From NCBI GenBank assembly GCA_051294375.1, contig CM119265.1, positions 13,322,124-13,386,123 on the forward strand: 64,000 nt of DNA, in the 5' to 3' direction. This stretch comes from Paraspadella gotoi. Lineage: Eukaryota > Animalia > Chaetognatha. The notes beneath the pieces were generated by a model. The model worked only from the letters and a program-made list of their open reading frames with translations, searched no databases and was not told where the DNA came from. The position numbers and the translations under genes were made by a program. Positions 86 through 63,700 of this stretch are shown piece by piece. How positions within the stretch are numbered: the stretch's first letter is position 1; the number at the start of each line of letters is the position of its first letter.

Positions 86-3027
86 CGTCAGTCCGTCCGT
101 CTTTCAGAATATTAACGATCTTTCTTTATTTTTTCTTTCTTTATTTCTTTTTTTCTTTCTTTCTTTTTTTCTTTCTTTCTTCTTCTGTTCGTTCCTACGT
201 TCAAATTAAACTGTTTTTTTTTTTTTTTTACTATTTTGGTTAAATATAAACAATTTTACATAGTTCTTAATAGAAAAACGGCCCGAAACCGGTTGAAATT
301 TCGTCCTTGAAAAAAGGTTCGTAGGGGTTAGGGTCGGTTAGGCGTTAGCGAAAAAAAAGATTAAAAACGTGGAAGAGCAAAAGAAAGAAGAGTTAAAGTT
401 AGGGAAGGTGAAAGATGTGAGGAAGGGAAAGATGAACGAAACCCTACCACCTTTTCTCGCGGCCTAAAAATTATTTGGGAAAAGATGCAAATCACAGAGA
501 AACGAACGAATAAAAATGAAAACGGCAAAACGGCGGAAAACAAAGATAATAACTTTTAAAAGCAAAAAATCGAAGTCCCGGCAATCGCCGCCGATAGTAG
601 GGATGAAAGAATAGACAAAGCGTGACGTTGATTCCCTCGAATGACTTTTTCGGCAGATTGCAGAAAACTTATCAAAAAGACGGAATGCGGAATATCCGCT
701 CTCAGCTATTGGACACTTCCGTCGAGATTCCTTACGATTGACTCGCTTCGCTTCTCTGAACTGAAGTCAGGTTGAAAGTAAATATAGAACATTTCTTTTC
801 AACTAATCTTTCTCTTCGTCTCTGTTCCAGACTCATTGTCTGTCTGTTTATCTGTCTGACTGTCTTTCCGTCTGTCTGTCTCTATCTTTAATTATTCGAC
901 GCTCATTAAAAAAGGATTCCGTTATTTACTCATTACTTCCTTGAAGATTTGTAGCTTCTTCTTGTTTCAACAGCGACGAAAACATCGTTTCTAATCACAT
1001 TGCCAAAAACAAGCAACTGCGGAAGTTCACGTGCCAAGTATCGTTGGAAGAAAGATAACAGATTGCACAATAAAGCACAAAGAGGTTAAATCAGTAAAAA
1101 TGTCGATTTTCTATTTCTCCTGTAAAGATCTACGGGTCGTCGACTCCTGTCGCTCCTTGTAAGATTTTAGTGTCTGTTTGTCCGCATCGATTTGACATCC
1201 GATCGACAAAAGCAGAAGAAGGGAAGGAATTTAACACAATCGAAGAAATAGAAATAGAAAAGAGAAAAAAAAGAGATCAAGAGATTTACGTAATACGTTA
1301 CTATGGAAATCTTAGCGTTGATATTGAAGTGGCAAAAAAAAAAACCGCTAGGTATCACTCGAAGCAGACATATATCACTATATTTTTGGTAGTAGCCATA
1401 TCGGTATTGACCAGATGTAAATGAAAATCCAACCAGCAACAATGAAAAACTTTTGACGGCTTTCATAAACAGATCTGAAATTGAAAGTGGTTACTTCATT
1501 CGCGTTGCATCTTTAAAATTGTTTTATCTATTTATTTTCATCAACTTTTAACCAATCAAGTTTTCTGTTTTGTTTTCTGAGAAAAGATTCTGATTAAATT
1601 TCATTTTAATACGTATCTGTCTTTTTTTAAATTCAAGCAAAACTTGCAAGTTTGGTGGGCATTTAACCTTATAAATTAGTAATTATTAGCTAATTTATTG
1701 GCCAGAGTCATGCTGGGGTATGAAGACATAGGAATTCATATTACTTTCTCTCAAAGGGTTTGAATTTAGATACATTTTACGCCGATTTCTCCTGAAGTTT
1801 TATCAATCATTTCATTTTTTTTTCAAAAATATATATAAAAATTATCATATACTTTTATTTCAGTGAATTATTATAATAACTAAAATTAGAATGACAATCT
1901 TCTCTCTAAAAAAGAGATAGAATAGAGATTAATTCCCATCCAATAGAAGACGGGTCAAATTATAGTGACAAAAGAACAAAAGGGCAGAATGGAAAGATCA
2001 AGAAAAACTCCGACGTTTGTTTCTAAGAAAAGGAAACATGCGATGGGACGCAGCCAACATGCAATCGCGAGAAAGACATGCAGCCAATTTCATGTCAGAA
2101 TTCATGGGCCAAATATTTTGAAAGGCAGGAAGACGGGGTGGTCGAAAGGGAGGGGTGAAAAATGTAAGAGAGAAAGACTCAGTTATCAATTGTTATAATA
2201 ATATTATTATCTTTCCTATCGTTTAACATTTTACTACTTTCAAGAATGCTCCTTCTCGATCGCCCTCCTTTCCTTACCGGAACCTCGCCCGATCCGCTTC
2301 TCCTTTTTCCTCACGTCATCTTTACGAGAAGATTCCTCCAAATTCCCTTCTGAAATTATATTATTAAGAATAATATTGCAAGCGAATTATATTATAAATG
2401 TTAAATCAAACTGAACTAATGTGACATAATCATAAAGCACGTTTCCGCCGTCGCGTGGTCCGGACGCCGTTTGTTTGCCTCTCCTCCTCCTCCTCCTCCT
2501 CCTCCTCCTCCTCCTTCTTACTCATCCTCTTCAGTTCCGTCCAGCTCCTCATCTCTGCCTCATTGGTAAGGCAGTTCCATCGTCGATTCCTTACCTTTTT
2601 TCTCTCTCTCTCTCTCTCTCTCTATTTCACGAAGTAGGACGATCCGTTTCGCACAAGTTTATTAATTGGACCAAATCGTCTCTTTTTTCTTTTCTTCGCG
2701 GATAAATTCACTTCTTAATCCTTAATTCCTAATCGTTTGGCGAAGATAAAAAAAATCCAATTATAACAAAAGAAGCAATACATGAAACCACCTCATTATT
2801 ATGTTCTAATTCAAGTATCAATTAAACTAAAGAATTTAAAAATACATTAAAATGAAATCATAACCGATGCACGATTGGTCGACACTAAAAAAGCTGCTCT
2901 TCCGAAAATTATCGATGGAATTCACTTAATTATTTCGAAAAATGGCTGAAAAAAAAGGGAAATTGAAATTTAATATTATGGCAACAGCTGGGTTGCCTGT
3001 GATGCCCATTGGGATGGGGCATCTCAC

Positions 3028-3110
3028 TGTTGGCTTTGGGGGCTTCCGACCCTCAGTGACGCCTCCAGCCACTGGCGCGGTTACCCTATGACGGTCTCGC
3101 TTTGCCAACA
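3028..3110 (-). ncRNA. Twister ribozyme, type P5 permutation, in the 3' LTR (best-preserved copy of this family)
   Basis: Minus-strand RNA reads UGUUGGC AAA GCGA GA CC G UC AUAG GG U^AA CCGC GC CAGUGGC UGGAGGC GUCACUG AGGG UCGGAAGC CCCC AAA GCCAACA. It has P5 (7 bp), P2, short P1, P3 (7 bp), P4, conserved UAA, GA and AAGC, pseudoknot T1 (GG/CC) and T2 (GC/GC). One C.A mismatch in P2 and one in P4. Predicted cleavage between 3083 and 3082. Confidence 0.8.
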
Positions 3111-3337
3111 CAGAGGGAAGTCGTTAGGACTGTGGAGTGTGGATGGAACACTACGCCTGGGATGGTGTGTTCCCCCTCTGAGCCAATGGATTTGGCTGAA
3201 GGATGGTGGACGTGAGGCGGTGTGAATATACCGCCACAGGATTCCCGGGCCAAGACATCACTCAGGTTCCTAAAGCCTGAGAGGTGTCTGACAAGACTGT
3301 TACCATAGTGGGAGAGAGAGAGAGAGCGGGAGTTGTG

Positions 3338-3397
3338 GGGGCATAGGCGTTTGTCATAGCATACCCCAGGGGCATAGGCGTTTGTCGTAGCGTACCC
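3338..3397. repeat. 31-bp-period tandem duplication inside the element's internal region
   Basis: ggggcataggcgtttgtc(a/g)tagc(a/g)taccc occurs at 3338-3366 and 3369-3397. Confidence 0.9.
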
Positions 3398-3399
3398 TG

Positions 3400-3432
3400 A
3401 GAAGGTTGCGTGTTCGATAGTAGGGCTCACCA
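3400..3432 (-). promoter_or_regulatory. Primer-binding site complementary to the 3' part of tRNA-Trp
   Basis: The + strand reads agaaggttgcgtgttcgatagtagggctcacca. This resembles the 3' half of metazoan tRNA-Trp (AGAAGGTTGCGTGTTCAAATCACGTCGGGGTCACCA, recalled from memory) including the CCA end, and lies 2 nt from the LTR boundary. Confidence 0.75.
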
Positions 3433-3485
3433 CTTATGGCAACAGCCGGGTTGCCTGTGATGCCCATTGAGATGTGGCATCTCAC

Positions 3486-3568
3486 TGTTGGCTTTGGGGG
3501 CTTCCGACACTCAATGACGCCTCCAGTCACTGGCGCGGTTACCCTCGGACGGTCTCGCTTTGCCAATA
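3486..3568 (-). ncRNA. Twister ribozyme motif in the 5' LTR (partly degenerate)
   Basis: Same fold as 3028-3110, offset by 458 nt. Substitutions disrupt P4 (AGUG/CCCC) and the outer part of P5. UAA, GA, AAGC and both pseudoknots are retained. Confidence 0.65.
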
Positions 3569-4090
3569 CAGAGGGAAGTCGTTAGGACTGTGGAGTGTGG
3601 ATGGAACACTACGCCTGGGATGGTGTGTTCCCCCTCTGAGCGAATGGATTTGGCTGAAGGATGGTGAAAGTGAGGCGGTGTGAATATACCGCCACAATAT
3701 TTTCTTTGTTTTCGCCTCAAAAATTTTTTTTTTCGGTATGCGTTGCAAAAGCAGCCGGGTGACAAGAAACGGGCTATAGAGCGGAGAGGAGAAGAGAAAA
3801 AGCAACAATGAAAATGAAAAAAAAAATAATTAAAAAAAAATGTAAAAAAAAATCAGATGCAGTACGAGAAGAAAACGACGACGACGACGACGACGACCAT
3901 TTGAAAGGAAACAACAACTTCCTTTTGCGCAGGTTTGATAATGTCAGCTTTGACGACATCTATGTATTTTTTATTTTGACTACATTAGTCGTTTAGTTTT
4001 ATATTTTTAATATATTTCAACATTTTTAAAGGTAAATAAATGGAATCAAATAAATCAACAACTTAAATTTCGCTCATTTTTAAATTCAAT

Positions 4091-6547: not shown

Positions 6548-29935
<23,388 letters not shown>

Positions 29936-44355: not shown

Positions 44356-47150
44356 TTTTTCATGTATCTTTCTGCTTTCTTTCAGAGGACAAGCGAAAGT
44401 TCGATGTGACAGTGAAAACGGCGCTGAACAATCCTTTGGTGATTTTGGAGGAAAGCGGCGCCGACGAATTAAGCAAAGGATTCGTTTATGAGAAATCGGA
44501 GGTAAAGTTGATGAGTCTGTATGTCTGTGATATGCGTGTGCCTGTTTGAGAGGGCGAGGAAGACGTTTTGAAATAATATAAAATTAGAAAGAGGTAAACT
44601 AAATTGTTCTTGTTTAAACATTTTAAAAATTATAATTCACTGCAAATGGTTTTGAATGAATTTATTGTAATTAGATTTCATATTCTAAGTACTAATGTAC
44701 TAAGATACGAATGCAAATTGCTTTTTAATTGAGTAACAATAACCAAAAACTATCTTCAACCCGAACCACCCAAGGAACTCTTGAAGACATCCTCGGACGT
44801 GATGTCTCTGATCAGCCTCCGTGACGTTCCGGGTTACAACAAAAAATCGCGCGGAGATTCGTTTCGATCGTCGAATCGGGGATCGAGGAGTCCCGGAGGA
44901 AGAGGAGGGGGAGGTGCGGAAGAAGGGGGAGAAGGAAGAGTAGAGGAAAAAGAAAATGTTACCCGAGAGAGAAGTCCCGTCAGAAGAATAGAGACAGAAT
45001 ATCGTTCGCCGCAGAGATCTCCTACGCGGCATTTCTCCGAGCCTGCCTCTCAACAGCATCCTCAGCATCCATCCAATCAAATGCCCTTCCACAATCGCTC
45101 CCCTTCGTCAATAAGATCCTTCTACTATCCCGACACTCCCACCCTGAGTCCCACCGGCTCGTCGGAGGCCAGCTGTCCGGCGGCGACGAGGAGCGAAGAG
45201 CGGATTCTCCCTCGACATCCCGCGCCTTACCCGCCGCAGCATCCGCTGAAGGGCATGCTGAGGCAGCTTTCTCAGTTTCCCGGAGTGGTAGAGGGGCGGG
45301 TGGAGCCGGGTCGATCCTCGGAGTTGAGTGCCAGAGTAGAGTTTGGTCCTGAGTTCTGTCCCGGGAGCGAGACCGACTCCGCTTTGGATCTAAGCTCGAC
45401 GGGAAAAAGATCTTCACCAGCGTCGCCGCCGACGGCGCCCCCGCCGCGCGACAATTTCCAGCGCCGCTCGTCTGATTCTCTGGATCCGCCGCCGTTATCT
45501 CGTGTGCCTTTGGCTCCGCGGTTCCGCGCGCCGCCGCAGCCCTCGTCCCTCGTCGATCCCATGCCTTCCATGCCTTCGCCGAATTCCCTGCCAAACTCTT
45601 CGTCTCCGAGATACGTTCTTTCTCCGCCGGCGATATTTCCTCTGGGTTCCATGCCTTCGCCAGCCTCCATGCCCTCTCCGGCTTCTTTGCCATCACCGGC
45701 TTCCATGCCTTCACCCCGTTCCGTTCATTCTTCCGGGTCTCCGCCACCAGGGAGACACAACAACTCCTCGCCGACGCTCTCTTCAACCAAGGGCGGATCC
45801 CTCGCTTCTCCTCCTCCTCCTCTTCATCCTCTTCCTTCTCCCGCCGCCGATGAGGGGGATCTCCACGACTTTCCTCAACTGAAGAAGGCATTGACCGAAG
45901 GCGCCTTCGCCAACGTTCGCTCGACCGAGGATCGTTTTCCCGGCGTCGTCAAGTCTTTCCATCTTCCGGCAGTGAAGGAAATGCCGGAAAAACTCGGCCT
46001 CGTCGTCAACGAGGTCACAGGGAAAGGGTGAGTCTTCGGCGAGTTGTCAAAATTTCCTATTTGATATTTAATATTATTTTCTATTTAATATTTTTTTCTT
46101 TTGCAGTTACGAAAAACGCGTCCTCACCTACGTTCGGAAAACGGCAGAAGGTTCTGGCGAAAAGGTCATTTACGAACTTTGCCCGCCGGAAACTGTTCCT
46201 CCCACGTACGTGGCGTTTCCGGAAAAGGCCAAGACGGGCGACCTAGTCTCGCTGGATCTTCGCCGGGACAAGGTGGGTCCCGGCGCGGTGCTGTCCACCT
46301 ACCGATCCTGCCTCAAGTGTCCAGAATGTGAAAAAGTCTTCACGGGTCCCAAAGGACTCAAGCAGCACATCTCCTTCGTGCACAGAGGAGTCACTCAACC
46401 CTGGAAGTGCGAAGAGTGCGGAAAGCATTTCACGCTAAAGGTAAGATACAGCTTTCCCTTACTTTCTACAGATTGGAAAAATTTGTAATTATTTGCGATC
46501 AAAAACTCAGGCCAGTCTCAAACTCCACCGCAAGATTCACACGGGACAGAGAGAGTTCAAATGTGACGTCTGTTCCAAGACTTTCGTGCAGAAAGTGGGA
46601 TTGCAAGAACACATGCGAACCCACACCAAGATCAAACCCTATCAGTGTGGGGTCTGTGCGAGAAAGTTTACGCAAAAACACAGCCTCATCACTCACCTTC
46701 GTTTACACACTGGAGAGAAGGTAAGGTCGTGAGGTGGATATTTTCATTCATTCAGTGGAAGATTGGATTCTAATCAAGACCTTTCTCCTCCAGCCCTTTA
46801 ACTGCTCCGCCTGCAACAAGGACTTCACGTTCAAAAACTCGTACAGATGGCATCTTTTGAAATTCCACGCCAACGATTTGAAGAAGGCGGACATCGATCG
46901 ACTGCTGGACGACCCGGTTCTGAGCCTGCACCAGGTGGCGATGCAAGGGTCGAAGGAGGACTCGCCCTCGTCGCAGGTCGACGCCGGCTCATCCTCCAGC
47001 GAAGGTCCGGGGACGCCGCCGTCTCCGCCAAAAGGTTCGACTTCGTCTTCAGCATCCGAAGGCTCTGATCAAGAGGAAGGGGGACTGCAAATTGTAGAAG
47101 AGGAAGCGTCCGTCAGTCAGCCAAGTTTGAGGATGCTGCTGACAGCTTGA
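42478..47150 (+). CDS. C2H2 zinc-finger protein (five fingers, long Pro/Ser-rich region)
   Basis: Phase-consistent exons 42478-42481, 42577-42682, 43611-43714, 44386-44501, 44775-46027, 46107-46440, 46511-46720 and 46794-47150. Fingers CPECEKVF...HISFVH, CEECGKHF...HRKIH, CDVCSKTF...HMRTH, CGVCARKF...HLRLHTGEKPF and CSACNKDF...HLLKFH. The 5' exons are less certain. Confidence 0.88.
42816..42861 (-). ncRNA. Degenerate copy of the minimal hammerhead motif
   Basis: Minus strand CGCG CTGATGA A GAATC gaaaaaacta GAGTG GAAA CAAGTC CGTT is homologous to 34160-34199, with stem II broken. Confidence 0.5.
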
Positions 47151-47324
47151 AATCGTGACAACAAAAACCCCATAATTCCCGCTTCAAGGCGAAGTATTAG
47201 AAATAAAACTCATGATTTTTGTATAATGTATATTATACATTGTATAATGTAGTCTTTTCTAATTTGGACTTTCCATTTGCCTCGCAAGTCAGTGGGGCTT
47301 GTTTCTATCATGTTTATTAGATGC

Positions 47325-47506
47325 TGTGGCGAATCCCGTATAGCTTGGACCTTGGGGAAACTCAGATCGTCCCATTGGCTTGAACAGCTAAGTGCTCGTT
47401 CACCAACCTCACGGTCACGCCAGTGACGTGGGGTTGTCACTACAGGTCCAAAGCCCTGAGCGCCAGCTGTCGGGAGATGCATCACACATGTCCCCCCTTT
47501 GCCATA
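47325..47506 (+). mobile_element. Solo LTR of a diverged sister family (internally deleted) downstream of the zinc-finger stop codon
   Basis: Termini TGTGGC...GCCATA with 4-bp TSD ATGC (47321-47324 and 47507-47510). Retains the 3' half of the twister motif (CAC GC C AGTGAC...GTCACT A CAGG TCCAAAGC CCTG). Confidence 0.85.
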
Positions 47507-48326
47507 ATGCCATATTTTTGCTATGACACCCAACAATGTGTACATCAGTTATAACACCGGTTCAAACCGAATTCGGTATACTAGTAGTTGCCAGTTTTAT
47601 TCATTGCCATGTTTTTTAGCGGGTGAACAGGTATTTTCTTCCCAATTTTGTGGTAATTCGAATTTATTGTTATAATTTTTTTTTTTAATACGCGCTTACT
47701 ACGTCTACATCTTAAGCCGAAGGTCGTTGTTTAACTTTTATTTATCGTCTGTCTTGAAAGTTTTTTTTGTTCAATGAAAAAAACATTGTTTAATAAATAC
47801 ACATGATTCTTGTATTAACCCATCCAATGAATCATAGAGCTAGTGACAAACGTGCATAACAAGGCATCGCTATAACATTAATTTAAACTGAAAAAAAAAA
47901 AAACGCTGGAAAACATTCCGACAATGAACCTGGCAGAAAATGTTCAGGAAAGTTAGATGGCAACATGTGGAATGTTACTCAAGAGTCGAAACGGTCCTCA
48001 GGCTACTTCTACTTTGAAAATTACATCAAAAGAAGTTATCAACTGACGTAGATACAACTAAATGCTGCGAAACAAAATCATTAGATTTAAAAAAAAAAAG
48101 CGCCGGTGTAATGAATTAAATGAGGAAACAATGAAATGAGAGAGGCCGTCTTGTGAATTGCCTTGAGTGATACATTGAGCCTGACGGTTTCTTTGAGTGC
48201 TTCGGCGAATGATATCCAAATTGTGACTCAAACGCCAATGGAGCATCTTCCGTTGCTCGAACAAGAGCGAACGAGGCGCTCCGTATCGGCGAGAGAGTCA
48301 ACGGATCATCTTTAAGTACTCGTCGG

Positions 48327-49237
<911 letters not shown>

Positions 49238-51489
49238 TTAGTGGGATAGTTGATAGGATGATGGTCAGGAGACGAAAGTGGGGAGGAGAAAAAAAGAGGC
49301 CGAGACCTGAAGATGACGAAATTGAAGGATAAAATTTCAGTAATGCCATCAAAAATAATATTTATAATACGCTCACAGAAAGCTTAAAAGCTTTAATTCA
49401 AATAAATGTAAATGTAAATGTATTTTAGTACAAACTTCGTATTTTATCTCAATTAATGGTGATTTGTCATGATAACGCAACCTAGTAACAAATTACAACA
49501 TCAAATTTGAATTAGCCATTTACAAATGACTTACCGAGGTCTATTACATGTTATTTCATTTACGTCTAAGCCAACCAAATTTTGTTCCGTCTAAAATAGT
49601 AGTTTGGGCGACGTTTGTAAGACGCGCAAAAACTAAAAGTCCAGTTTTTACATTTTTTGAAGTAAAAATGTCTAGCAGTACAGTTAAAGGTAAGGGTAAT
49701 GGTGACAGACGCTACGATATTACGTGAGTTCGAAATTCAAGCCAAGTTTTATTGCGCAAAACTCTATAACAACCGTGACAATTTAAGTACAACGTAGAAC
49801 AAAGGAGTTGGGACGAATCTCTGAATAATCTTCATCATCATCATCATCATCTGTGAAGAAGAATCGTTACTCACTAACCAATAAGATCCAAGAATTTTTG
49901 ACAAGTTCGACTGACGAAGAGACGATTGGTCGAGGCAGAATGAATCGCGAAATAACAAAATTTATCGCGTCAGTATATTGAACACTGATGGTCGCCTTTA
50001 GATGGCGGGTTGAGCTGAACAAGGAAGAATATGAAAACAAAAGGGGCGACGGAGCAGCTGCACTCGGAAAGGAAGGCTTTTTAACAATTTTAAGAAGGAA
50101 GTAAGTAGATTATAAAACACCTGTAAATGTCCCTCGGCTTAATTCTTCAGGGACGCTACTAAGTTTTTAGACAACAGGCTCAGAAAATAAGATCAGGTTA
50201 AAAAAAAAATGGCAAACTCGCTTGGTCAATAAATACCAAATAGTTTCTACAGGGGATTTACAAAAAATACCGAAATAAAATCCAGTTCGGGCATTCAGTA
50301 ATAAACAAAGTTTCAAAACAAATAGACAAAGAGATACATAGAGTGGGAGATCGAGAGGAAGATCGTCGACCCCTTACTAGTCGCTTACATTTTCTTTGTC
50401 GTGGTTGTCGTCGTCGTCGTCATCGTCCTCAGGAACCTCATGAATATCGTCGCGACGTCTTGATCGTCGTCTCGATTAACCTTGTCGACTTCGATATCGT
50501 TTCCGTCGTCGTCGTCGTCTTCGTCGTCGTCGTCTTCCCCAAATTCGTCCCCGATCGATCCCTCCTTTGCGCTCCCCAGCCTCCTTTACTCACCCGCCAC
50601 GAAAATTGGCCGCGTCGTCAATCGCCCCGTTTATTTATAGTTCCACTCCCCGTCTCAACTTATTTTTTTCAATCTTGTTAAAAGAAGAAAATATCTCAGA
50701 ATTTGTTTTTCTCTTCAAATTTGTTTCCCTTTCCTGATCTTTATCTCTTTTCTCTCGACATCCTCATTACGCGTCCTATTTTTCGAGTCTCGCACTATCT
50801 TGTACCAATTGTGCTACTAATTTTTTAAAACATGACGCAACGAAAACATTAGCTCATTTCTTCATTAGCTGAGTACCAAAGAAAACTTTGTTCTACATCT
50901 AGAGGAAAAAAGATTTTGCATATAATAATCAAGGCACAAATTTTAGTCAGAGTTCTTTTAAATTGAAATGATTCAAAAAGTCTTGATTAGTTTATTTACA
51001 TTGAAATTTATATTAATATGTTTATCTAAAAGAAGTTAAAATCAATTTTTTTCCTGATTTGTTTGGTAGATTTTTTAAAGAAAGGCTGGTAATTATTCGT
51101 CCATTCCGTGTGGACGAGCAGCACGAATCCCCTTAAGGTGTTGTTTTCTCAGAGGCGAAACAACATGAATGATTTTAGAACGATGAACGTAATTTACCTC
51201 AAAAGATCGAGTGACGAACAGCCATATTTTGTTTTGATTTCTTTAAAACGCTGATTGCCCCTGTGGTTTGAGCAATATTCAATTTGTATATGCAAAGTTT
51301 TAAAAAATAATTTAAATCGAAAAAGTAAAATTAAACCTAAATTATTTTTTTCAAAGCAAATTTTTTTCAACATGAACTATCTACAGAATAATTTTGGAAT
51401 ACCCTAATTTATCAAATTTAACACTAAATAATATTCACAACATTACCAGTCTAATCAGATGTAACAATAACGTTTATTTACTAAATACG

Positions 51490-52349
51490 ATGAACGCGGC
51501 ATCGAACTTCCACGACTTAAGAAACATCCCTCAAACAAACATCGAGAACAAGGATGTAACCAAGCCCTCCTCAACCGTCGGTGACTCCGACGAATCACGT
51601 TTCGACTTCCTTTTAGACTTTGCCGAATTTACCAGCGACGCCGATGTCCACCTCTCTGGCGTTTCCCCGCTTCCAAACTTCGAGGGTCGAATCTCCGCTC
51701 ATCCGCCGCAGACGAAACCTTACTTCTGTCAAGGACCGATCGGAAAAAACGTGAGCCTTTCGGGAAACGATCGCATGAGCGCTGGAGAAAATAACGAGTC
51801 GACTGCGACGGAATTGAACGCCGTTTTTAACGGATCCTCGTCTTCGATTGAAAACGCCGTCTTTTCTCGCGATGACAGACAACATGTCTTTAATTCCATT
51901 TCGCCATCGCCAAAACTTCGTTCGACGCAAATCGGAGACCAGTTTTCAAATCGTTTGAATAATGAGTCGGTGGGCGTTGCTTGCTTCCGTCACGCTCCAG
52001 TCCTAGTCAAATGCCCCTATTGTGAGATGGTAGGAACCACGTTGTGCTTAAGCGAGAGCGGAACGTTAACTTGGCTAGTGTCGGGAACTTTGTGCGTGTT
52101 GGGGTGAGGAAAAAAAAAATTCTGAAAGTCTGCATTAGCCTTTTTTTAAACATATTTAAAATGTTTGTGTTAATTTACGCAACAGTTGAAATATCAACAC
52201 AATATGAATTCATATAATTTTTTTTGGTATATTTGATCCAGGTTGTGGGTGGGCTGCTGCTTCATTCCTTTTGCGTGGACTCCCTGAAAGATACTCTTCA
52301 TTACTGCTCTAAGTGTAAAAAACTTATTAGCAAATGTGAACGAATGTAG
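51490..52349 (+). CDS. LITAF-domain protein 1 (long divergent N-terminus)
   Basis: Exons 51490-52103 and 52242-52349: PVLVKCPYC...GTLTWLVSGTLCVLGLWVGCCFIPF(C)VDSLKDTLHYCSKC. One T is missing at about 52270; the duplicate copy at about 63200 has the extra T. Confidence 0.85.
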
Positions 52350-54779: not shown

Positions 54780-57700
54780 AAAGAGAGAGATAAATGTACT
54801 AGTGACCAATGCAAATTGCTTTTTAATTGAGATAACAATAACAAAAACTATCTTCAACCCGACCAACCCAATGGAACTCTTGAAAGACAGTCCTCGGCAC
54901 GTGATGTCTCTGATCAGCCTCCGTGACGTTCGCGGGTTACAACAAAAAAATCGTCGCGGAGATTCGTGTTCGATCGTCGAATTCGGGGATTCGAGGAGTC
55001 CCGCGGAGGAAAAGAGGAGGGGGAGGTGCGGAAGAAAAGGGGAGAAGGAAGAGTAAGAAGGAAAAAGAAAATGTTACCCGAGAGAGAAGTCCCGTCAGAA
55101 GAAAGAGACCAGAAATACTCGTTCGCCGCAGAGATCTCCTACGCGGCATTTCTCCGAGCCTGCCCTCTCAATCAGCATTCCTCAGACATACCATCCCAAT
55201 CAAAATGCCCTTCCACAATCGCTCCCCTTCGTCAAAAAGAATCCTTCTACTAACCAGACACTCCACCCCTGAGTCACACCGGCTCGTTCGGAGGCCAGCT
55301 GTCCGGCGGCGACCGAGGAGCGGAAAGAAGCGGCATTCTCCTCGACATCCCGCGCCTTAACCCGCCGCAGCATCCGTGAAGGGCATTGCTGAGGGCAGGC
55401 TTTCCTCAGTTTCACCAGGAGTGGTAAGAGGGGGCGGGTGAGCCGGGTCGATCCTCCGAGTTGCAGTGGCCAGAGTAGAGTTTTGGTCCCTGAGTTCTGT
55501 CCCGGGAGCGAGACCGACTCCGCTTTGGGAATCTAAAGCTCGACGGGAAAAGATCTTCAGCCAGCGTCGCCGCGCGGCGCCCCCCGCCGCGCGAACCAAT
55601 TTCCAGCGCCGGCATCGTCTGATTCTCTGGAAGGCCGCCGCCGTTATCTCGTGTGCCTTTGGCTCAGCGGTTACCGCGCGCCGCCCGCAGCCCTCGTCCC
55701 CGTCGATCCCATGCCTTCCATGCCTTCACCGATCCCTCCAAACTCTTCGTCTCCCGAGATACGTTTCTTTCTATTCCGGCCGGCGATATTTCCTCTGGTT
55801 CCATCCTTGGCACAGCCTCCATGCCTCTCTCCGGCTTCTTTGCCATCAGCCGGCGTCCATGCCTTCACCCCGTTCCGTTCATCTTCCGGGTCTCCGCCAC
55901 CATGTTTGGAGACACAACAACTCCTCGCGACGCTCTTCTTCAACCAAGGGCGGATCATCGCTCTCTCCTCCTCCTCTTCATCCTCAATTCCTTCTCCCGC
56001 CGCCGATGAGGGGGATCCTCCACACTTTCCTCACTGAAAGAAGGCATTGACCGAAGGCGCCTTCGCCAACCGTTCGCCTCCGAGACCGAGGACTCGTTTT
56101 CCCGGCGTCGTCAAGTCTTTCCAATCTTCCGGCAGTGAAAGGAAATGCCGGAAAAACTCGGCCTCCGTCGTCAACGAAGGTCACAGGGAAAGGGTGAGTC
56201 TTACGGCGAGTTGTCAAAATTTCCTATTTGATATTTAATATTATTTTCTATTTAATATTTTTTTGCTTTTGGGGCAGTTACGAAAACGCGTCCTCACCTA
56301 CCGTTTCGGAAAAAACGGCATAAAAAGAAAAGGTTCTGGCGAAAAGGTCATTTACGAAACTTTCGCCCGCCGGAAACTGTTCCTGCCCACGTAACGTGGC
56401 GTTTCCGGAAAAAAAGGCCAAGACGGGCGACCATAGTCTCGCTGGATGCTTTCGCCGGACAAGGTGGGTCCCGGCGGCGTTGCTGTCCACCTAACCCGAT
56501 CCTGCCTCAAGTTGTGCCCAGAATGTGAAAAAGTCTTCACGGGTCACAAAACACGACTCAAGCAGGCACATCCTCGTGCAACAGAGGAGTCACTCAACCC
56601 TGGAAGTGCGAAGAGTGCGGAAGCATTTTCACGCTAAAAGGTAAAGATACAGCTTTCCCCTACTTTCATAGAGATTTGAAAATTTGTAAAATTATTTGCG
56701 ATCTCAAAACTCAGGCCAGTCTCAACGTCCACCGCAAGATTCACAGCGGGAAGACAAAGAGAGTTCCAAATCGTGACGTCCCTGTTCCAAGACTTTCGTG
56801 CAGAAAAGTGGGAATTGCAAGAATCACATGCGAACCCACACACAAGATCAAACGCCTATCAAATGTGGGGTCTGTGCGCAGAAAGTTTACGGCCAAAAAC
56901 ACAGCCTCAATGCAACTCACCTTCGTTTACAGACTGGAGAGAAGGTAAGGTCGTGAGGTGGAATTTCATCTCATTCCAAGTGGAAGATTGGATTCTAATC
57001 AAAGAAACCTTTCCTCCTCCACCCTATTAACCTGCTCGCGCCTGCAACAAGACTTCACGTTCAAAAACTCGTAACAGATGGCAATCTTTTGAAATTCCAT
57101 CGCCATAACGATTTTGAAAGAAGGCGGACATCGATCGACTGGCTGGACGACCCGGTTCTGAGCCTGCAAACCAGGTGGCGATGCAAGGGTCGAAAGGAAG
57201 GACTAGCCCTCGTCGCAAGGTCGACGCGCCGGATCATCCTGCCAGCGAAGGTCCGGAGCGCCGCCGCTTCCGCCAAAAGGTTCGACCTTCGTCTTTCCAA
57301 AGCATCCGAAAGGCTCTGATCAAAGAGGAAGGGGGGACTCACAATTGTAGAAGAGGAAGGCGGTCCGTCCAGTAGCCAAGTTGAAGGAATGCTGCTGACA
57401 GCTGAAAATCCGTGACAAACAAAAACCCCATAATTCCCCGCTTCAAGGCGAAGTATTAGAAATAAAAAACCTCATGATTTTGTATAATTGTAGTCTTTTC
57501 TAATTTGGACTTATACATTTGCATCGGCGAGTCCAGTGGGGCTTGTTTCTCATCATGTTTATTAGTATGCAGTGGCGAAATCCTAAATTCACCTCCGCGA
57601 TAGCTTGGACTTAGTGAAACTCACGATACGTCCCGCATTGGCTTGGACAGCTTAAGTACTCGTTCACCACCGTGAGTTCCGGGTTCATCTCTTGCGCTCA

Positions 57701-60700
57701 AAGGTCAACGCTGTTAAAAGTGTGATGGTGTCGGCCATAAACACGCCAGTTGACTTGGGGTTGTCACTACAGTCCAAAGCCCTGACGCCAAGCTGTCGGG
57801 AGCCTGCATCACACCAGTCCTTTGCCAATAATGCCATAATTTTTGCTATGACACCCCAACAATGTGTACTCAGTTATAACCAACCGGTTTCAAACCGATT
57901 CGGTATACTAGTAAGTTGCCAAGTTTTTATTCATTGCCAATGTTTTTTAAGCGGTGAACCAGGTATTTTTCCTTCCAATTTGTGGTAATTCGAATTTATT
58001 GTTTAATTTTTTTTTTAAAATAAGCGACTTACTACGTCCTAACATCTTAAGCCGAAGGTCGTTGTTTAACTTTTATTTATCGTCTGTCTGAAAAAAGTTT
58101 TTTTTTGTTCAACTGAAAAAAAAAACATGTTTTAATAAAATACACACATGATCTTGTATTAACCCATCCAATATGACATCACTAGAGCTAGTGACAAACG
58201 TGCATAACAAGGCATGCGCTAATAAACATTATTTAAACTGAAAAAAAAAAAAAAAAAACGCTGGACACAATCGACAATGAACCTGGCACAGAAAATGTTC
58301 ACGGAAAGTAGATGGCAAAATGTGGAACATGTTACTTCAAGAGTCGAAACGGGTACTCAGGCTACTTCTTTACTTTGAAAATTACACATCAAAAGAAGTT
58401 AATCACTGACGTAAGATACAACTAACATGCTGCGATAACAAAATCATTAAGCTTTAAAAAAAAAAAGCGCCGATGTAATGATTAAAATGAGGAAACAATT
58501 GAAATGAGAGAGGCCCGTCTTGTGAAATTGCCTTGAGTCGACACATTGAGCCTGACGGTTTCTTTGAGTGCTTCGGCGAATGATATGCCAAATTGTGACT
58601 CAAAACGCCAATGGAGGCATCTTTCCGTTGCTCGAACAAAGAGGCGACGAGGCGCTCCTATCGGCGAGAAGAGTCAACGGATGGATCTTTAAGTACTCGT
58701 CCGGGTCAACGCGAACGTTTCTTGCGCCGCGTAGACCAGTAGAGGTAACCATAGTCGTCGACCTCGTTGTCGTAGACCTCCGGCCAAGCTCGTCGGAGTT
58801 GGACACGCAATTGCTCTGGTCGTCTGACGAGGAGAAAAACCGCCTGAAGGTGGGAAGATGAGCGGTTTTGTTTATGAGGAAGCAAGTGAATGAAGGGAAG
58901 AGAGTGAGTAACGTAAAGATAAATAATATCAAAGGTAATTTGTTTGATTGATATAGTGTGAAATTAATGTTTAGCGCTTGACATTCAAATTGCTTATTTG
59001 TATTAGTTTAAAAGCTTAAAAAAGTTTAATTTTTCGCGGTTAAATAAAAAAAATATTTCAAAACTGAAAAAGATAGGAAAACAAAGTTAGAATTAATAAC
59101 AAAATATAAAAACACTTACTTGGTTAGGGGTGAAGCTCCAGCCGGCGTCGAATAATTTTTCACAAGTTCGCTCAACGTTTAAAGTTATCTGAGAAAAAAT
59201 TAAACATGTTTGTTTTCGATTTACAAATATTGATGTGATAGCGTGACTTAAATGCATGGATCTGTTTTAATTTATTCCGTGATTCATTGATTTTTTTTAA
59301 ATCGATTAGACTTTTGGATTGCTTGATTGATAAAAATCACTTATTCGATGGGATTGATGCGATCGATTGACAGGTCTCCCGAAATTAAAGTGTGATGAAA
59401 TCGAGCAAAAGATGGATTTGCACCCATTCCTTTCTCCCCCACTCACACGGGCACCAAAAACTTGGTCTTACCAAAAATGGGGCAATTGATTCTCGGCCCA
59501 CGAAGTTTTCGTATCGATGGAATGACGGGGATTTTGTCAAAGGCATAGAGGTGGCGGAATATCCTCCCACGTCCGCGCGACGCGTCTTCGAAAGCTGCGT
59601 CGACTGCTTTGAAGACTTCTTCGGGCACAAGCGCCATCTCAGATGGAGAAGTTCGTCCGCGGGCGTGACAGGGGGCGGGCTTAAGTGGAATAGTTGATAG
59701 GGTGATGTTCAGGAACGAAAAGTGGGAGAAAGAAAAAAAGAAGCCGAGAACCCTGAAAGAAGACGAAATTGAAGGAATAAAAATTTCAGTAATGCCCTCA
59801 AAAAATAATATTTATAATACGCCTCACAGAAGCTTAAAAGCTTTAATCAAATAAACTGTAAAATGTATTTTGGTAACATAGCTTCGTATTTATCTTCAAT
59901 TAATGGTGATTTGGTCATGATAACCGCACCTAGTAACAAATACACACAATTTGAAATTAGCCATTATACAAATGACTTACCCGAGGTCCTATTACATGTT
60001 ATTTCATTTAACCGTCTAAGCCAATCAAATTTTTGTTACCGTCTAAAATACGTAGTTTGGGCTACGTTTGTAAGACCGCAAAAACATAAAAAGCTCCAGT
60101 TTTTAACATTTTTTGAAGTAAAAATGTCTAGCAGTAAAGCAGTTTTAAAGGTAAGGGTTAAATGGTGACAGAACGCTAACGAATATACGGTGGTTTGAAA
60201 TTCAGCCTAAAGTTTTCTTTGCGCAAGACATCTATAACAACCGTGGACACATTTTAATACAACGTAGAACAAAAGGAGTTTGGGAACGATCTCTGAATAA
60301 TATCTTCATCATCATGCATCATCTGTGAAGAAAAATCGTTACTCACTAACCAATAAGATCCAAGAATTTTTGACAAGGTTCGACTGGACGAAGAGACGAT
60401 TGGTCGAGGCAGAAATGAATCCGGCGAAATAACAAAATTTATCGCGTCAGTATATTGAACATCTATGGTCGCCTTTTAGATGGCGGGTTGAGCCTGAACA
60501 AGGAAGAATATGAAAACAAACAAGGGGCGACGGAGCAGCTGCACTAGGAAAGATAGGCTTTTTAAAAAAATTTTAAGCAAGGAAGTAAATAGATTATAAA
60601 ATGTCCCTCGCTCCAATTTTTCTAAGGGACGCTAATAAGTTTTTAAGACAAACAAGGCTGCAGAAAAATAAGAATCAGGTTTAAAAAAAAAATGGCAAAC

Positions 60701-63700
60701 TCGCATTGGTCAATAAAATACCAAAAATAGTTTTCTAGCACGGGGATTTACAAAAAAATACGAAAATAAAACTCAATAGAGTTCGGGCATTCCAGTAATA
60801 AAACAAAGTTTCAAACAAATAGACAAAGACGATACATAGAGTGGCACGATCGAGAGGCAGAATCGTCGACACCTTACTAGTCCGCTTTACATTTTCTGTC
60901 TGTACGTGGACAGCTCCGTGTTTGTCGTCGTCGGTCGTCCTCGGTCGTCGTCCTCAGGAACCGTCATGAATATAGCGTCAGCGCACGTCTTGATCGGTCG
61001 TCTCGATGTAAGCCTTGGGGAGTCCTCGGAGACCGGGGGGAACCCGTTCGATATCGAAGATTTGGGGATAGTTATCGAGCGAAGACGAAATCGCGAATCC
61101 GGACTCGCGCGAGTCGTGCATAATACGGCCGAATATTCGAGAATCGGTTCTCGCGCACCAAGTGTCGTACACTCCGATCGAGTATCCGCTCCTAATCTGC
61201 AGCTCCCACAAGCCTCGAACTTGTGATCCGCAGCACGCAAACGTCCATACGCAATAATTGGAGGCTTCGCTGAGTATCCAACGACCTGAAACAGCACCGT
61301 CATCTAGTAACTGATAAACTAGCTTCCACTGAGGTCCACCCGTCACTCAGACAGTTAAATAATGTTTTATCAATCTGTGTAAGAGCAGAGAGAAACCTAA
61401 TGATACTGGAGCAAAGAGAGTTGTTCTGTTACGTCTACATAAGTTTGGCCGCTTTCCCGAATGATCTTTCATCCCTCTTTTCTCATCTGACCATTCCATT
61501 AGCGCGTTACCCTATTCTTTTTGAAGTCGAGCGCACTATCTTGTACCGAAGATTGTGCTATCTATGTTAATTTAAAACACACACGCTAACGAATAAGCAT
61601 TAAGTAATTCATTTCTTCACATTAGCTGACTGTAGGCGCGAAAAGATGAAACTCTTCGTTCTACCACGATAGCAGAGGAAGCGATAAAGTTGATTGATTT
61701 GCGTACAATATTATCAGATGAGTCTAAAAATTTTAAGTCAGTAAATCTTTTCCTAAATTGAAATGATATTAAAACTAAGAGTAATTGAAATTTAATTAAA
61801 ATTTATTTCATTATTTAGTGTATTTATCTTTAAAGAAGTTAAAATCAATTTTTACACAGCGATTGTGTTGTGTGATTACTCTCTTTTAAAGAGACAGTGC
61901 TGGTAAGTATATTCGTATACATTCCGTGTGGAGCGCTAGCGTCACGAGGTCTTAGCTGTTGTGACTTTTCTCAAGAGGACGAAACAACATGAAATGATTT
62001 TAGAATGCGATGAGAACGATAAGTTGGAACCTCAGAAAGATCGAGTAGCAAAGCAGCTCAATATTTTTGTTTTGATTCTACTTTAAAGCGTCTGATTGCC
62101 CCTAGTGTTGAGGCAATAATTCACTTTGTATATGCAAAGTTTTAAAAGATAAAGATGTGTAAATCGCGAAAAAGTGAAAATTAATAACGCCTAATTATGT
62201 GTTATTTCAAAAGCAAATTTTATCTTTGACATATAATCTACAGAATAGATTTGGAATAGCACCCCTAATTTATCAAATTCTACGACTAATAACTATTCAC
62301 AACATTCACCAAGCTAATCGATGTATAACATAACGGTTCATGTTACTAAAATACGATGAACGCGCATCGAACTTCCACGACCTTAAAGAACATCCTCAAA
62401 AACACTCGCAGAACAAGGAGTAACACAGCCCTCCTCAACACGTCAGTCGGTGACTCACGAAGATTCCGTTTCGACTTCCTTTTAGACTTTGCCGAATTTT
62501 ACCAGCGACGCCAGATGTTCACTCTCTGGGATTTCCCGCTGTCCAACTTCGAGGGTCTAAAAGAATTCCGCTCATCCGACGCAACGACGGAAACCTTACT
62601 TCCTGGTCAAAGGACCGATCGAAAAAAACGTGAGCCCTTTCGGAACGATCGCATGAAGCGCTGGAAGAAAATAAACGAGTCGAGACTGCGACGCGATTGG
62701 ACGCCGTTTTTAGAGCGGATCCTCGTCTCGATTAGAGGTGACACAGCCCGTCTTGTTCTCCGCGGTCGACAGACACATGTCTCTGTACATCCATATTTCG
62801 CCATGCCAAAGCTTCGTGTCGACAGCAAATCGGAGACCAGTTTCCAAATCGTTTGAATATCGTAGTGTGTCGGTCTTGGCGCGTGCTTGCTTCCGATCAC
62901 GCATCCAGTCCTTGTCAAAATGCCCCTATTGTGAGATGGAGGATACCACGTTTGTGTTAAGCGAGAGCGGAACCGTTACTTGGCTAGTGCTCGGGAAACT
63001 TTTGATGCGTGTTGTGGGTGAGAAAAAAAAAAAAAATTCTGAAAGTCTGGCATTATGCCTATTTTTTAACATAATTTAAAATGTTTGTTGTTAATCTTAA
63101 ACCACAGTTGAAATCATCAACACGATATGAAATTCTATAATTCTTTTTTGTATAATTTGATCCCAGGTTGTCGGGTCGGGCTTGCTGCTTCATTTCCTTT
63201 TTGCGTGACTCCCTGAAAGATATCTCTTCATTACCTGGCTTTAAGCTGTTAAAAAACTTATTAGCAAAATGTGAACGGAATGTATGAAAGACACACGTTT
63301 TTTTCAGCTGACATATTTACACTTTTTTGAAACTTCTTGATACATATACTCGATGTGCTCATTTGTTTTATTTAAAGTTTTCATCTGATCTGATTTCTCG
63401 GATCGGCGAGACCAGCGGCTGCACGAAATACATGCTCCTTTATACCTGACGCGTGGTGTATGTTGTTGCTAGAATACCTTTGCTATTAGACGTCAATCGC
63501 CCACAAAGTTTTCTTAGCCGTTTCTTGAATTTATTTTACCTTGTTTATCGTTTCATTCGAGTAGGTTACATAGACAAATGTAACTAAAAAATCAGCATTT
63601 AGACATTTTAGTTCCGCGCTTCTAATAAGCAATAATGAAAATCTCAACAAACGCGCGCCGCAAGATGGACGACCGCTGCCCCCCGCAGTCCTTAACGCCT

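What the first reader, a model, noticed from the sequence alone, without database searches (positions are those of the whole stretch)
2977..3696. Candidate animal LTR 'retrozyme' whose LTRs encode a twister ribozyme
Seen: a 720-bp non-coding element with two 262-bp LTRs, a 4-bp TSD and a tRNA primer site, and in each LTR a sequence that folds as a type P5 twister ribozyme in the sense orientation defined by the primer site. Known: plant retrozymes are non-autonomous LTR elements with 4-bp TSDs and a hammerhead in each LTR, whose double self-cleavage yields circular RNAs. Described animal retrozymes are non-LTR hammerhead repeats, and eukaryotic twisters have been linked mainly to non-LTR elements. 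Inference: cleavage in both LTRs (3541/3540 and 3083/3082) would release a 458-nt monomer that could circularise and be copied by a Ty3/gypsy-type helper. I do not know of a described twister-bearing LTR element, but I cannot search the literature.
Basis: partly seen in the sequence, partly recalled or inferred. Interest (0 to 1): 0.93.

Follow-up and report, generated by a model that had tools for sequence, protein, structure and literature searches.

The report
Animal mini-retrotransposon with twister ribozyme
A small, protein-free, many-copy jumping element in an animal genome carries in each terminal repeat a sequence predicted to fold as an atypical self-cutting twister RNA; if it does cut (untested), it would be an animal counterpart of the plant 'retrozymes', which use a different ribozyme and spread through RNA circles.

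Summary
The element is real: 2977-3696 (- strand), two 262-bp LTRs (250/262 identical), ATAT target duplication, 196-bp non-coding interior. A solo LTR with its own 4-bp duplication lies at 12805-13059. Contigs of two DNA runs leave the LTR ends into many different flanks, so it is a dispersed family. Ends (TGT...ATA), tRNA-Trp primer site and 4-bp TSD are CsRn1-clade Ty3/gypsy signatures, pointing to the likely helper. The 3' LTR holds every twister core segment in type-P5 order, both pseudoknots pairing; 0 of 20,000 shuffles match; its unusual T1 pairing recurs in a phage twister. Against: Rfam gives only a weak twister-P1 fragment and no P5 hit; my own model misses it; P2 and P4 carry A-C mismatches, P1 is two pairs, and a rival fold is 9 kcal/mol better. 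This copy's 5' ribozyme and the solo LTR's are damaged. Cutting, transcription and circles are untested. Ten literature searches and this scan's notes showed no twister-bearing LTR element. Verdict: TRIM with a probable atypical twister; retrozyme cycle plausible, unproven.

The parts
2973..2976 (.). target-site duplication ATAT (left)
2977..3238 (-). 3' LTR, 262 bp, TGT...ATA; no AATAAA/ATTAAA/AGTAAA; TATATT at LTR position 9
3029..3109 (-). type-P5 twister-like motif, most complete copy: P5a 3109-3104, AAA, P2b 3100-3097, GA 3096-3095 (predicted catalytic G 3096), T1b 3094-3092, P1 hairpin 3091-3084, U^AA 3083-3081, P2a 3080-3077, GC 3076-3075, P3 3074-3054, P4/L4 3053-3038, AAA, P5b 3034-3029
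   Evidence: compared with PMC8501958 Table 1 and Rfam RF02684 consensus
3082..3083 (-). predicted cleavage site U^A in the 3' LTR
   Evidence: inferred from twister anatomy; untested
3239..3434 (-). 196-bp non-coding interior with a short (CT)n run and a 31-bp two-copy repeat (about 3338-3398)
3242..3246 (-). 5-nt purine run three bases before the 3' LTR; weak polypurine-tract candidate
   Evidence: sequence
3400..3416 (-). 17-nt exact complement of the variable loop and T-arm part of tRNA-Trp; second half of a likely bipartite primer site
   Evidence: matches 17 of the 19 bases of the wheat fragment tRF-Trp-CCA-1-1 in PMC8722339
3421..3432 (-). primer-binding site for tRNA-Trp, CsRn1-clade type
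   Evidence: 11 of 12 bases fit the site given in PMC2582038
3435..3696 (-). 5' LTR, 262 bp
3487..3567 (-). twister-like motif of the 5' LTR; P4 pair broken at 3509, P5 pair broken at 3567; predicted site 3541/3540
   Evidence: both places read otherwise in a large share of contigs laid there
3697..3700 (.). target-site duplication ATAT (right)
12805..13059 (-). solo LTR of the same family (93% identical, 7-bp deletion), own TSD ACAG (12801-12804, 13060-13063), in an intron of a cadherin gene, antisense to it; its twister motif (12937-12857) has P2 and T2 broken

Best explanation
This is a many-copy, non-coding miniature LTR retrotransposon (TRIM) of an animal, likely mobilised by a CsRn1-clade Ty3/gypsy element, whose LTR carries a predicted, atypical type-P5 twister ribozyme that would cut transcripts of intact copies once per LTR. 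Shown: LTRs, 4-bp TSDs, solo LTR, dispersed family, tRNA-Trp primer site, twister core segments with both pseudoknots pairing. Inferred: a transcript through both LTRs is cut at U^AA (LTR position 156/157) into a ~458-nt unit with 5'-OH and 2',3'-cyclic phosphate and no terminal repeat; a host ligase would close it into a circle; tRNA-Trp would prime on the bipartite site and the helper's reverse transcriptase would copy round the circle without strand transfer; the helper's integrase would insert the DNA with a 4-bp duplication. The weak P1, the two A-C mismatches and the more stable rival fold would make cutting slow and would keep the ribozyme shut in the finished RNA. The window's own copy is aged (LTRs 4.7% apart) and its 5' ribozyme is probably inactive.
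For: Anatomy. Dispersed family: 9,683 and 3,252 contigs laid in DNA runs X2 and X5; loose ends with AT-rich, low-agreement flanks at the LTR ends (X2: 56 at 2977, 95+38 at 3238/3239, 41+41 at 3434/3435; X5: 51, 90+33, 33+36). CsRn1 signatures. Twister core UAA, GC, GU..AAGC, GA, AAA all in place, T1 3 of 3 and T2 2 of 2 Watson-Crick, P3 7 pairs and P5 6 pairs where twisters have them; P2, P4 and T1 differ from the Rfam P5 consensus by double-sided changes that keep pairing; the same T1 letters occur in a phage twister, L205, Rfam twister-P1 48.3 bits, E 5.7e-10. Chance excluded. Among the 40 of 83 variant rows shown, the only family-wide variant inside the core (3038-3103) lies in the P3 loop (3063); the rest there are private to this window's LTRs, while about 15 variant places lie in the other 196 bp (weak: 43 rows hidden). 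LTR lacks a common poly(A) hexamer. The 458-nt unit folds better than 100 of 100 shuffles, z -3.2. Plant retrozymes also hold their ribozyme in a blocked fold (PMC4918200 passage).
Against: No Rfam Twister-P5 hit; only a twister-P1 fragment, 15.9 bits (gathering 67.2), E 0.41 at best, 14.0 bits for the solo LTR. A model from 26 phage P5 twisters found none of the three LTRs among its 7 weak hits (the model is biased: T1 fixed by my search pattern, long P1, P3 as insertion). 0 of 26 phage P5 twisters have a mismatch at the P2 pair next to the catalytic G or at the base of P4; all three LTRs here have both, and these places are not among the shown variant rows. The nested twister fold is 9.1 kcal/mol above the best fold in the 3' LTR core (median 2.9, maximum 9.2 in the phage set; pseudoknots not scored) and 18.0 and 12.7 in the other two copies. 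Prefix folding shows an early hairpin that hides P2b and the GA. Two of three copies in the window are damaged. The purine tract is weak. No evidence of cleavage, of a circle or of the helper was obtained.
Confidence: 0.48

Rival explanations
1. Ordinary TRIM with a captured, now inert twister relic: the LTR once took up a twister, the motif has decayed (two A-C mismatches, minimal P1) and the element transposes by the normal linear LTR route.
For: Covariance models miss it; mismatches absent from 26 of 26 phage P5 twisters and a 9 kcal/mol gap; animal TRIMs are known to carry captured small-RNA pieces in their LTRs (Helenus, Ajax; PMC10886601 parts 1-4).
Against: All catalytic and pseudoknot positions are intact in the 3' LTR; shown variants avoid the core; a diverged contig in X9 (record 20, 18 differences in 150 bases) keeps just the twister half of the LTR.
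Confidence: 0.25
2. Active but slow twister that only sets the 3' end: transcription starts upstream of the cut in the 5' LTR, many RNAs escape the first cut, cleavage in the 3' LTR replaces polyadenylation, and the linear RNA keeps a ~115-nt repeat for ordinary strand transfer; no circle is needed.
For: TATATT at LTR position 9, upstream of the cut at 156/157, and no common poly(A) hexamer in the LTR; weakened stems and a rival fold predict partial cutting.
Against: Identical ribozymes in both LTRs should cut both ends at similar rates; in plant LTR retrozymes the same layout yields circles (PMC4918200 Discussion); tandem twisters give circles in mammalian cells (passage in PMC7229834).
Confidence: 0.2
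3. Chance resemblance: a G+C-rich, hairpin-rich LTR that happens to contain twister-like words.
For: The descriptor was written after seeing the element; about 2.6e-4 chance hits per 64-kb window would add up over a very large scan; no covariance model supports it.
Against: 0 of 20,000 LTR shuffles; P3, P5 and the AA sit at the twister positions, joint extra chance about 2e-6; both pseudoknots pair, with a T1 variant seen in a natural twister.
Confidence: 0.07

Closest known systems
Plant LTR retrozymes (Cervera, Urbina and de la Pena 2016, PMC4918200)
   Same: Non-coding, two LTRs each with a self-cleaving motif, 4-bp TSD, primer site, solo LTRs, gypsy-type helper, G+C above 55% (56% here), structured unit RNA
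   Different: Animal host; twister (type P5) instead of type III hammerhead; tRNA-Trp/CsRn1-type ends instead of tRNA-Met; smaller (262-bp LTR, 458-nt unit against ~300-400-bp LTRs and 600-1000-nt circles); cleavage and circles not shown
Animal TRIMs, including Helenus and Ajax (Kojima 2024, PMC10886601)
   Same: Under 1 kb, two LTRs, primer site, no ORF, 4-bp TSD and gypsy helper as in animal Helenus, a small structured RNA inside the LTR
   Different: The LTR insert is ribozyme-like, not tRNA- or 5S-derived (ARAGORN and Rfam find neither)
CsRn1-clade Ty3/gypsy elements (PwRn1, AgCR; PMC2582038)
   Same: TGT...ATA ends, TGGTGAG/CCCC-type tRNA-Trp site, 4-bp TSD
   Different: No gag or pol here; no ribozyme is mentioned in the passages read
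Type-P5 twister ribozyme (Rfam RF02684)
   Same: Order of segments, all conserved core letters, both pseudoknots
   Different: T1 CGG/CCG instead of CCC/GGG; P1 two pairs instead of about eight; A-C at the first P2 pair and at the base of P4; scores below any threshold
Twister variants of Schistosoma Perere-3 (PMC8501958) and animal non-LTR retrozymes (PMC7229834; bioRxiv 10.64898/2026.07.22.740005)
   Same: Self-cleaving motif tied to an animal retroelement
   Different: Those are non-LTR: one P1-type twister at the 5' end of an RTE element, or type I hammerheads in tandem repeats without LTR, PBS or PPT

Membership tests
TRIM (non-autonomous miniature LTR retrotransposon) | under 1 kb, two LTRs, no coding capacity | tested here: met
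   720 bp, 262-bp LTRs; longest stop-free frame 115 codons, none across the interior suggests gag/pol
TRIM (non-autonomous miniature LTR retrotransposon) | TSD, primer site, dispersed copies and solo LTRs | tested here: met
TRIM (non-autonomous miniature LTR retrotransposon) | polypurine tract before the 3' LTR | tested here: inconclusive
   only 5 purines, 3246-3242
Partner of CsRn1-clade Ty3/gypsy | tRNA-Trp primer site, TGT...ATA or TGT...AAA ends, 4-bp TSD | tested here: met
   an ...AAA end variant shows in a joint of run X9
Partner of CsRn1-clade Ty3/gypsy | autonomous element with CHCC Gag sharing these ends in the host genome | not testable with these tools
   no genome held
Twister ribozyme, type P5 | conserved core letters in P5 order (GA, UAA, GC, GU..AAGC) | tested here: met
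   3' and 5' LTR; solo LTR has lost the C of GC
Twister ribozyme, type P5 | pseudoknots T1 and T2 | tested here: met
   3 of 3 and 2 of 2 Watson-Crick pairs; same T1 letters in phage twister L205
Twister ribozyme, type P5 | fully paired P1, P2 and P4 | tested here: inconclusive
   P2 3 of 4, P4 3 of 4, P1 2 pairs; 0 of 26 phage examples have these two mismatches; PMC8501958 says P1 typically has at least two pairs
Twister ribozyme, type P5 | score at the Rfam RF02684 gathering threshold | tested here: not met
   no P5 match listed; weak P1 fragment only; own model also negative
Twister ribozyme, type P5 | self-cleavage at U^A | not testable with these tools
   bench assay needed
LTR retrozyme | hammerhead (type III) in each LTR | tested here: not met
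   no hammerhead family among the Rfam matches to E 10; so not a member as defined, at most an analogue
LTR retrozyme | LTR/PBS/4-bp TSD layout with a self-cleaving motif in each LTR, sense to the primer site | tested here: met
   (motif predicted, activity untested)
LTR retrozyme | unit-length circular RNA in vivo | not testable with these tools
   only assembled contigs were served, which cannot show ends, strand or circles
Non-LTR retrozyme | tandem repeats with type I hammerhead, no LTR/PBS/PPT | tested here: not met
   definition from PMC7229834 passages
Helenus / Ajax (TRIMp3) | tRNA- or 5S-derived sequence inside the LTR | tested here: not met
   ARAGORN 0 genes; no tRNA or 5S match

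The most novel reading that the evidence does not exclude
The twister LTR is shared with longer, possibly autonomous CsRn1-clade elements (other interiors are joined to the same LTR and primer site), so that a whole animal Ty3/gypsy family, helper included, has its RNA ends made by a twister and is reverse-transcribed from circles: the first animal LTR retrozyme system and the first LTR elements with a twister.
Probability: 0.15. Interest if true: 0.93.

Novelty: new variant of a known kind. Interest (0 to 1): 0.76.

Why it matters
Papers read here, up to a July 2026 preprint, place LTR retrozymes in plants with hammerheads and describe animal retrozymes as non-LTR; eukaryotic twisters have a proposed role only at the 5' end of RTE elements. 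An animal TRIM with a working twister in its LTRs would show that the ribozyme-in-LTR, circle-template route arose independently with another ribozyme class and another helper clade, would give the rare P5 permutation a biological role, and would add a natural small circular RNA to the discussion of viroid-like RNA origins. One in vitro transcription decides the first step.

Tried and rejected
No genome is held for this window, so copies and helper could not be collected. Run search: 12 runs listed in 5 studies; no RNA holder listed; X9 and X10 are only guessed to be RNA. X9 (592 contigs laid) covers the element deeply, but it may be DNA and contigs cannot show ends, strand or level, so nothing is concluded on expression; X9, X10 and X5 give almost no cover of the unique flank, which proves nothing. 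X10 (organism B) gave 2 contigs of depth 2-6, 8 differences in 256 bases: read as carry-over or ingested DNA, not as a second host. No empty-site allele was seen among the 15 of 127 joints shown. Summed contig depth (7-8e5 over the interior against 231-339 on the left flank in X2) is not a copy number by the tool's own warning. Relatives in public collections: 84 viral loci and 7 metagenome loci for twister-core patterns gave no BLAST match to the element; 5 viral loci for the LTR-end/primer word were short chance matches; 1 of 30 viral and 0 convincing of 120 prokaryotic loci for the T1 variant parsed as twisters (two weak parses dropped). Rfam on the 35-base primer region alone: 0 matches; the viral match to the T-arm word was not a tRNA. 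A protein search with a zinc-finger exon found nothing, so the host is placed only as an animal (cadherin, PCDH15-like, C2H2 and LITAF domains among 4 of 17 frames scanned). Earlier findings of this scan: none by sequence or place; two hammerhead notes by words, unrelated. Rejected: Helenus/Ajax, non-LTR retrozyme, protein-coding element, assembly artefact (independent solo LTR with its own TSD; family present in other samples).
Full report
Observation. The element is as described. It spans 2977-3696, with LTRs at 2977-3238 and 3435-3696 (262 bp each, 250 identical; K2P 0.047), ATAT on both sides and a 196-bp interior; G+C is 56% against 41% for the window. On the - strand the LTR runs TGT...ATA and is followed after two bases by TGGTGAGCCC. 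The longest stop-free frame is 115 codons. Pfam hits in 4 of 17 frames scanned (cadherin, PCDH15-like, C2H2, LITAF) place the host among animals.

Family. No genome is held. Twelve public runs hold the sequence; four were laid on 2660-3790. In DNA runs X2 and X5, from two studies, 9,683 and 3,252 contigs fit. They leave the reference exactly at the LTR ends into AT-rich flanks with 42-46% agreement (X2: 56 at 2977, 95+38 at 3238/3239, 41+41 at 3434/3435; X5: 51, 90+33, 33+36), the mark of many independent insertions. X2 may be related to the assembled sample; X5 is from another study. The window's copy differs from most contigs at several places in both LTRs and the interior, so it is an aged copy. 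Other interiors are joined to the same LTR and primer site at 3404.

Helper. PMC2582038 (passages and the section on structural features) gives three signatures of CsRn1-clade Ty3/gypsy elements: 4-bp TSD, ends TGT...AAA or TGT...ATA, and the tRNA-Trp site TGGTGAG/CCCCGT/A. The element meets all three (11 of 12 bases of the site). In addition 3400-3416 matches 17 bases of a listed tRNA-Trp fragment (PMC8722339, one passage), so the primer site is likely bipartite. The purine tract is only 5 nt. The helper itself was not seen.

The ribozyme motif, for. Against the segment table of PMC8501958 (section read) and the Rfam Twister-P5 consensus, the 3' LTR parses as P5a GUUGGC, AAA, P2b GCGA, GA, T1b CCG, P1 hairpin, U^AA, P2a CCGC, GC, a 7-pair P3, P4 with loop (AGG GUCGGAAGCC CCC), AAA, P5b GCCAAC. 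T1 pairs 3 of 3 and T2 2 of 2. The paired positions of P2, P4 and T1 differ from the consensus largely by double-sided changes that keep pairing. The T1 variant is natural: of 30 viral loci fetched with it, one (L205) is a fully paired type-P1 twister, 48.3 bits, E 5.7e-10. A descriptor hits only the 3' LTR in the window, 0 of 20,000 LTR shuffles and none of 30 window shuffles; analytic chance is about 1e-6 per LTR or 2.6e-4 per window, before a further factor of about 2e-6 for P3, P5 and the AA. The descriptor was written with the element in view. Of the 40 variant rows shown (43 hidden), those in the core are private to this window's LTRs except one in the P3 loop, whereas about 15 fall in the other 196 bp; a weak hint of constraint.

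The ribozyme motif, against. Rfam lists no Twister-P5 match; the best is a twister-P1 fragment, 15.9 bits against a gathering score of 67.2 (E 9.9, 0.41; 14.0 bits for the solo LTR). Overlapping clan matches are dropped by the tool, so a still weaker P5 match may be hidden. As a positive control, 12 of 20 viral loci sent (of 78 fetched) matched Twister-P5 at 36-63 bits. A model built from 26 such phage twisters did not find the LTRs; it is biased by my search pattern, has a long P1 and treats P3 as an insertion. All three LTRs have an A-C mismatch at the P2 pair next to the catalytic G and at the base of P4; 0 of the 26 do (one duplicate parse dropped). P1 has two pairs. The nested twister fold lies 9.1 kcal/mol above the best fold of the 3' LTR core (phage median 2.9, maximum 9.2; pseudoknots unscored), 18.0 for the 5' LTR and 12.7 for the solo LTR; P3 and P5 form with probability near 1, P1, P2 and P4 near 0 in the nested ensemble. 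The 5' LTR has a further broken P4 pair at 3509 and the solo LTR has P2 and T2 broken. I therefore file it as twister-derived (about 0.9) and atypical, with activity of intact copies at about 0.65, not as a proven member.

Mechanism. Most likely (0.48): the retrozyme route as set out in the Discussion of PMC4918200, transferred to a twister. Cutting in both LTRs gives a 458-nt unit (3540-3083) without a terminal repeat, which can only be copied fully from a circle or multimer; tRNA-Trp primes, a CsRn1-type helper supplies RT and integrase. The unit is more structured than 100 of 100 shuffles (z -3.2) and the LTR has no common poly(A) hexamer. Steps shown: anatomy, mobility marks, motif. Steps inferred: transcription, cutting, ligation, helper identity. 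Rivals: inert relic in an ordinary TRIM (0.25); slow ribozyme that only sets the 3' end of a linear RNA (0.20); chance (0.07). This window's copy probably cannot release the unit itself.

Comparison and novelty. It is a TRIM by every testable criterion but the weak purine tract. It works like, if active, a plant LTR retrozyme, but fails that family's hammerhead criterion. Ten searches of the held library (combinations of twister, ribozyme, LTR, retrozyme, TRIM, gypsy, type-P5, Metaviridae, CsRn1) listed no twister-bearing LTR element. What I saw: passages of PMC7761336, PMC6154101, PMC6765202, PMC12471100, PMC13725137, PMC7229834, bioRxiv 10.64898/2026.07.22.740005, bioRxiv 10.1101/2022.07.19.500677, PMC10085705; passages plus one section of PMC8501958, PMC4918200, PMC2582038; parts 1-4 of 6 of PMC10886601. 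They place LTR retrozymes in plants, animal retrozymes among non-LTR elements, and twisters at RTE 5' ends; PMC8501958 notes LTR RT domains within 10 kb of 1.6% of Schistosoma twister variants, without placing them in LTRs. I did not see the original twister paper or its lists, Repbase/Dfam, or any supplements, which could hold such an element unremarked. This scan's earlier notes hold nothing similar.

Verdict. Observation confirmed; interpretation partly supported. New variant of a known kind: an animal, CsRn1-type TRIM with a probable atypical P5 twister in its LTR. Interest 0.76, resting on an untested cut.

Noticed in passing
window 12805-13059: Solo LTR of the same family with TSD ACAG inside a cadherin intron (exon 12538-12698 on +), antisense to the gene; a sense-oriented active ribozyme would cut the pre-mRNA. 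One case only.
   Followed up: partly
window 3400-3432: Primer region is bipartite: 12-nt acceptor-end site plus a 17-nt exact complement of the tRNA-Trp variable loop and T-arm. Extended primer contacts of this kind in Ty1/Ty3 and retroviruses are recalled, not checked.
   Followed up: partly
window 3404 (table 7): Contigs in X9, X10 and X5 share LTR, primer site and T-arm complement but continue into a different interior (up to 218 bases seen): other families or the helper.
   Followed up: no
window 2979-3128 (X9 record 20; joint 3366 to 2979): A 1,998-base contig of depth 214 matches only the twister half of the LTR (18 differences); a joint shows a variant primer site and an ...AAA LTR end. 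Suggests a diverged subfamily.
   Followed up: no
window 2977 and 3238 (table 7): Flanks at LTR ends are AT-rich and tend to begin ATAT in three runs, hinting at a target preference; PMC2582038 reports none for CsRn1-type elements.
   Followed up: no
window 3131-3137: The 7-bp deletion of the solo LTR is a common family variant (52 contigs in X2, 26 in X5).
   Followed up: no
window about 14500-20200 vs 20600-26450; about 44700-52100 vs 54900-62900: Long near-duplicates with many small indels and frameshifts: probably uncollapsed, error-prone haplotypes; some differences within the element may be assembly errors.
   Followed up: no
L205:147-215 (-): Phage-contig type-P1 twister with the rare T1 pairing CGG/CCG (Rfam 48.3 bits, below the 67.2 gathering score).
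   Followed up: yes
window 6335-29964, 44733-47150, 51376-52107: Host genes: cadherin with a PCDH15-like domain, C2H2 zinc-finger gene, LITAF-domain gene.
   Followed up: partly
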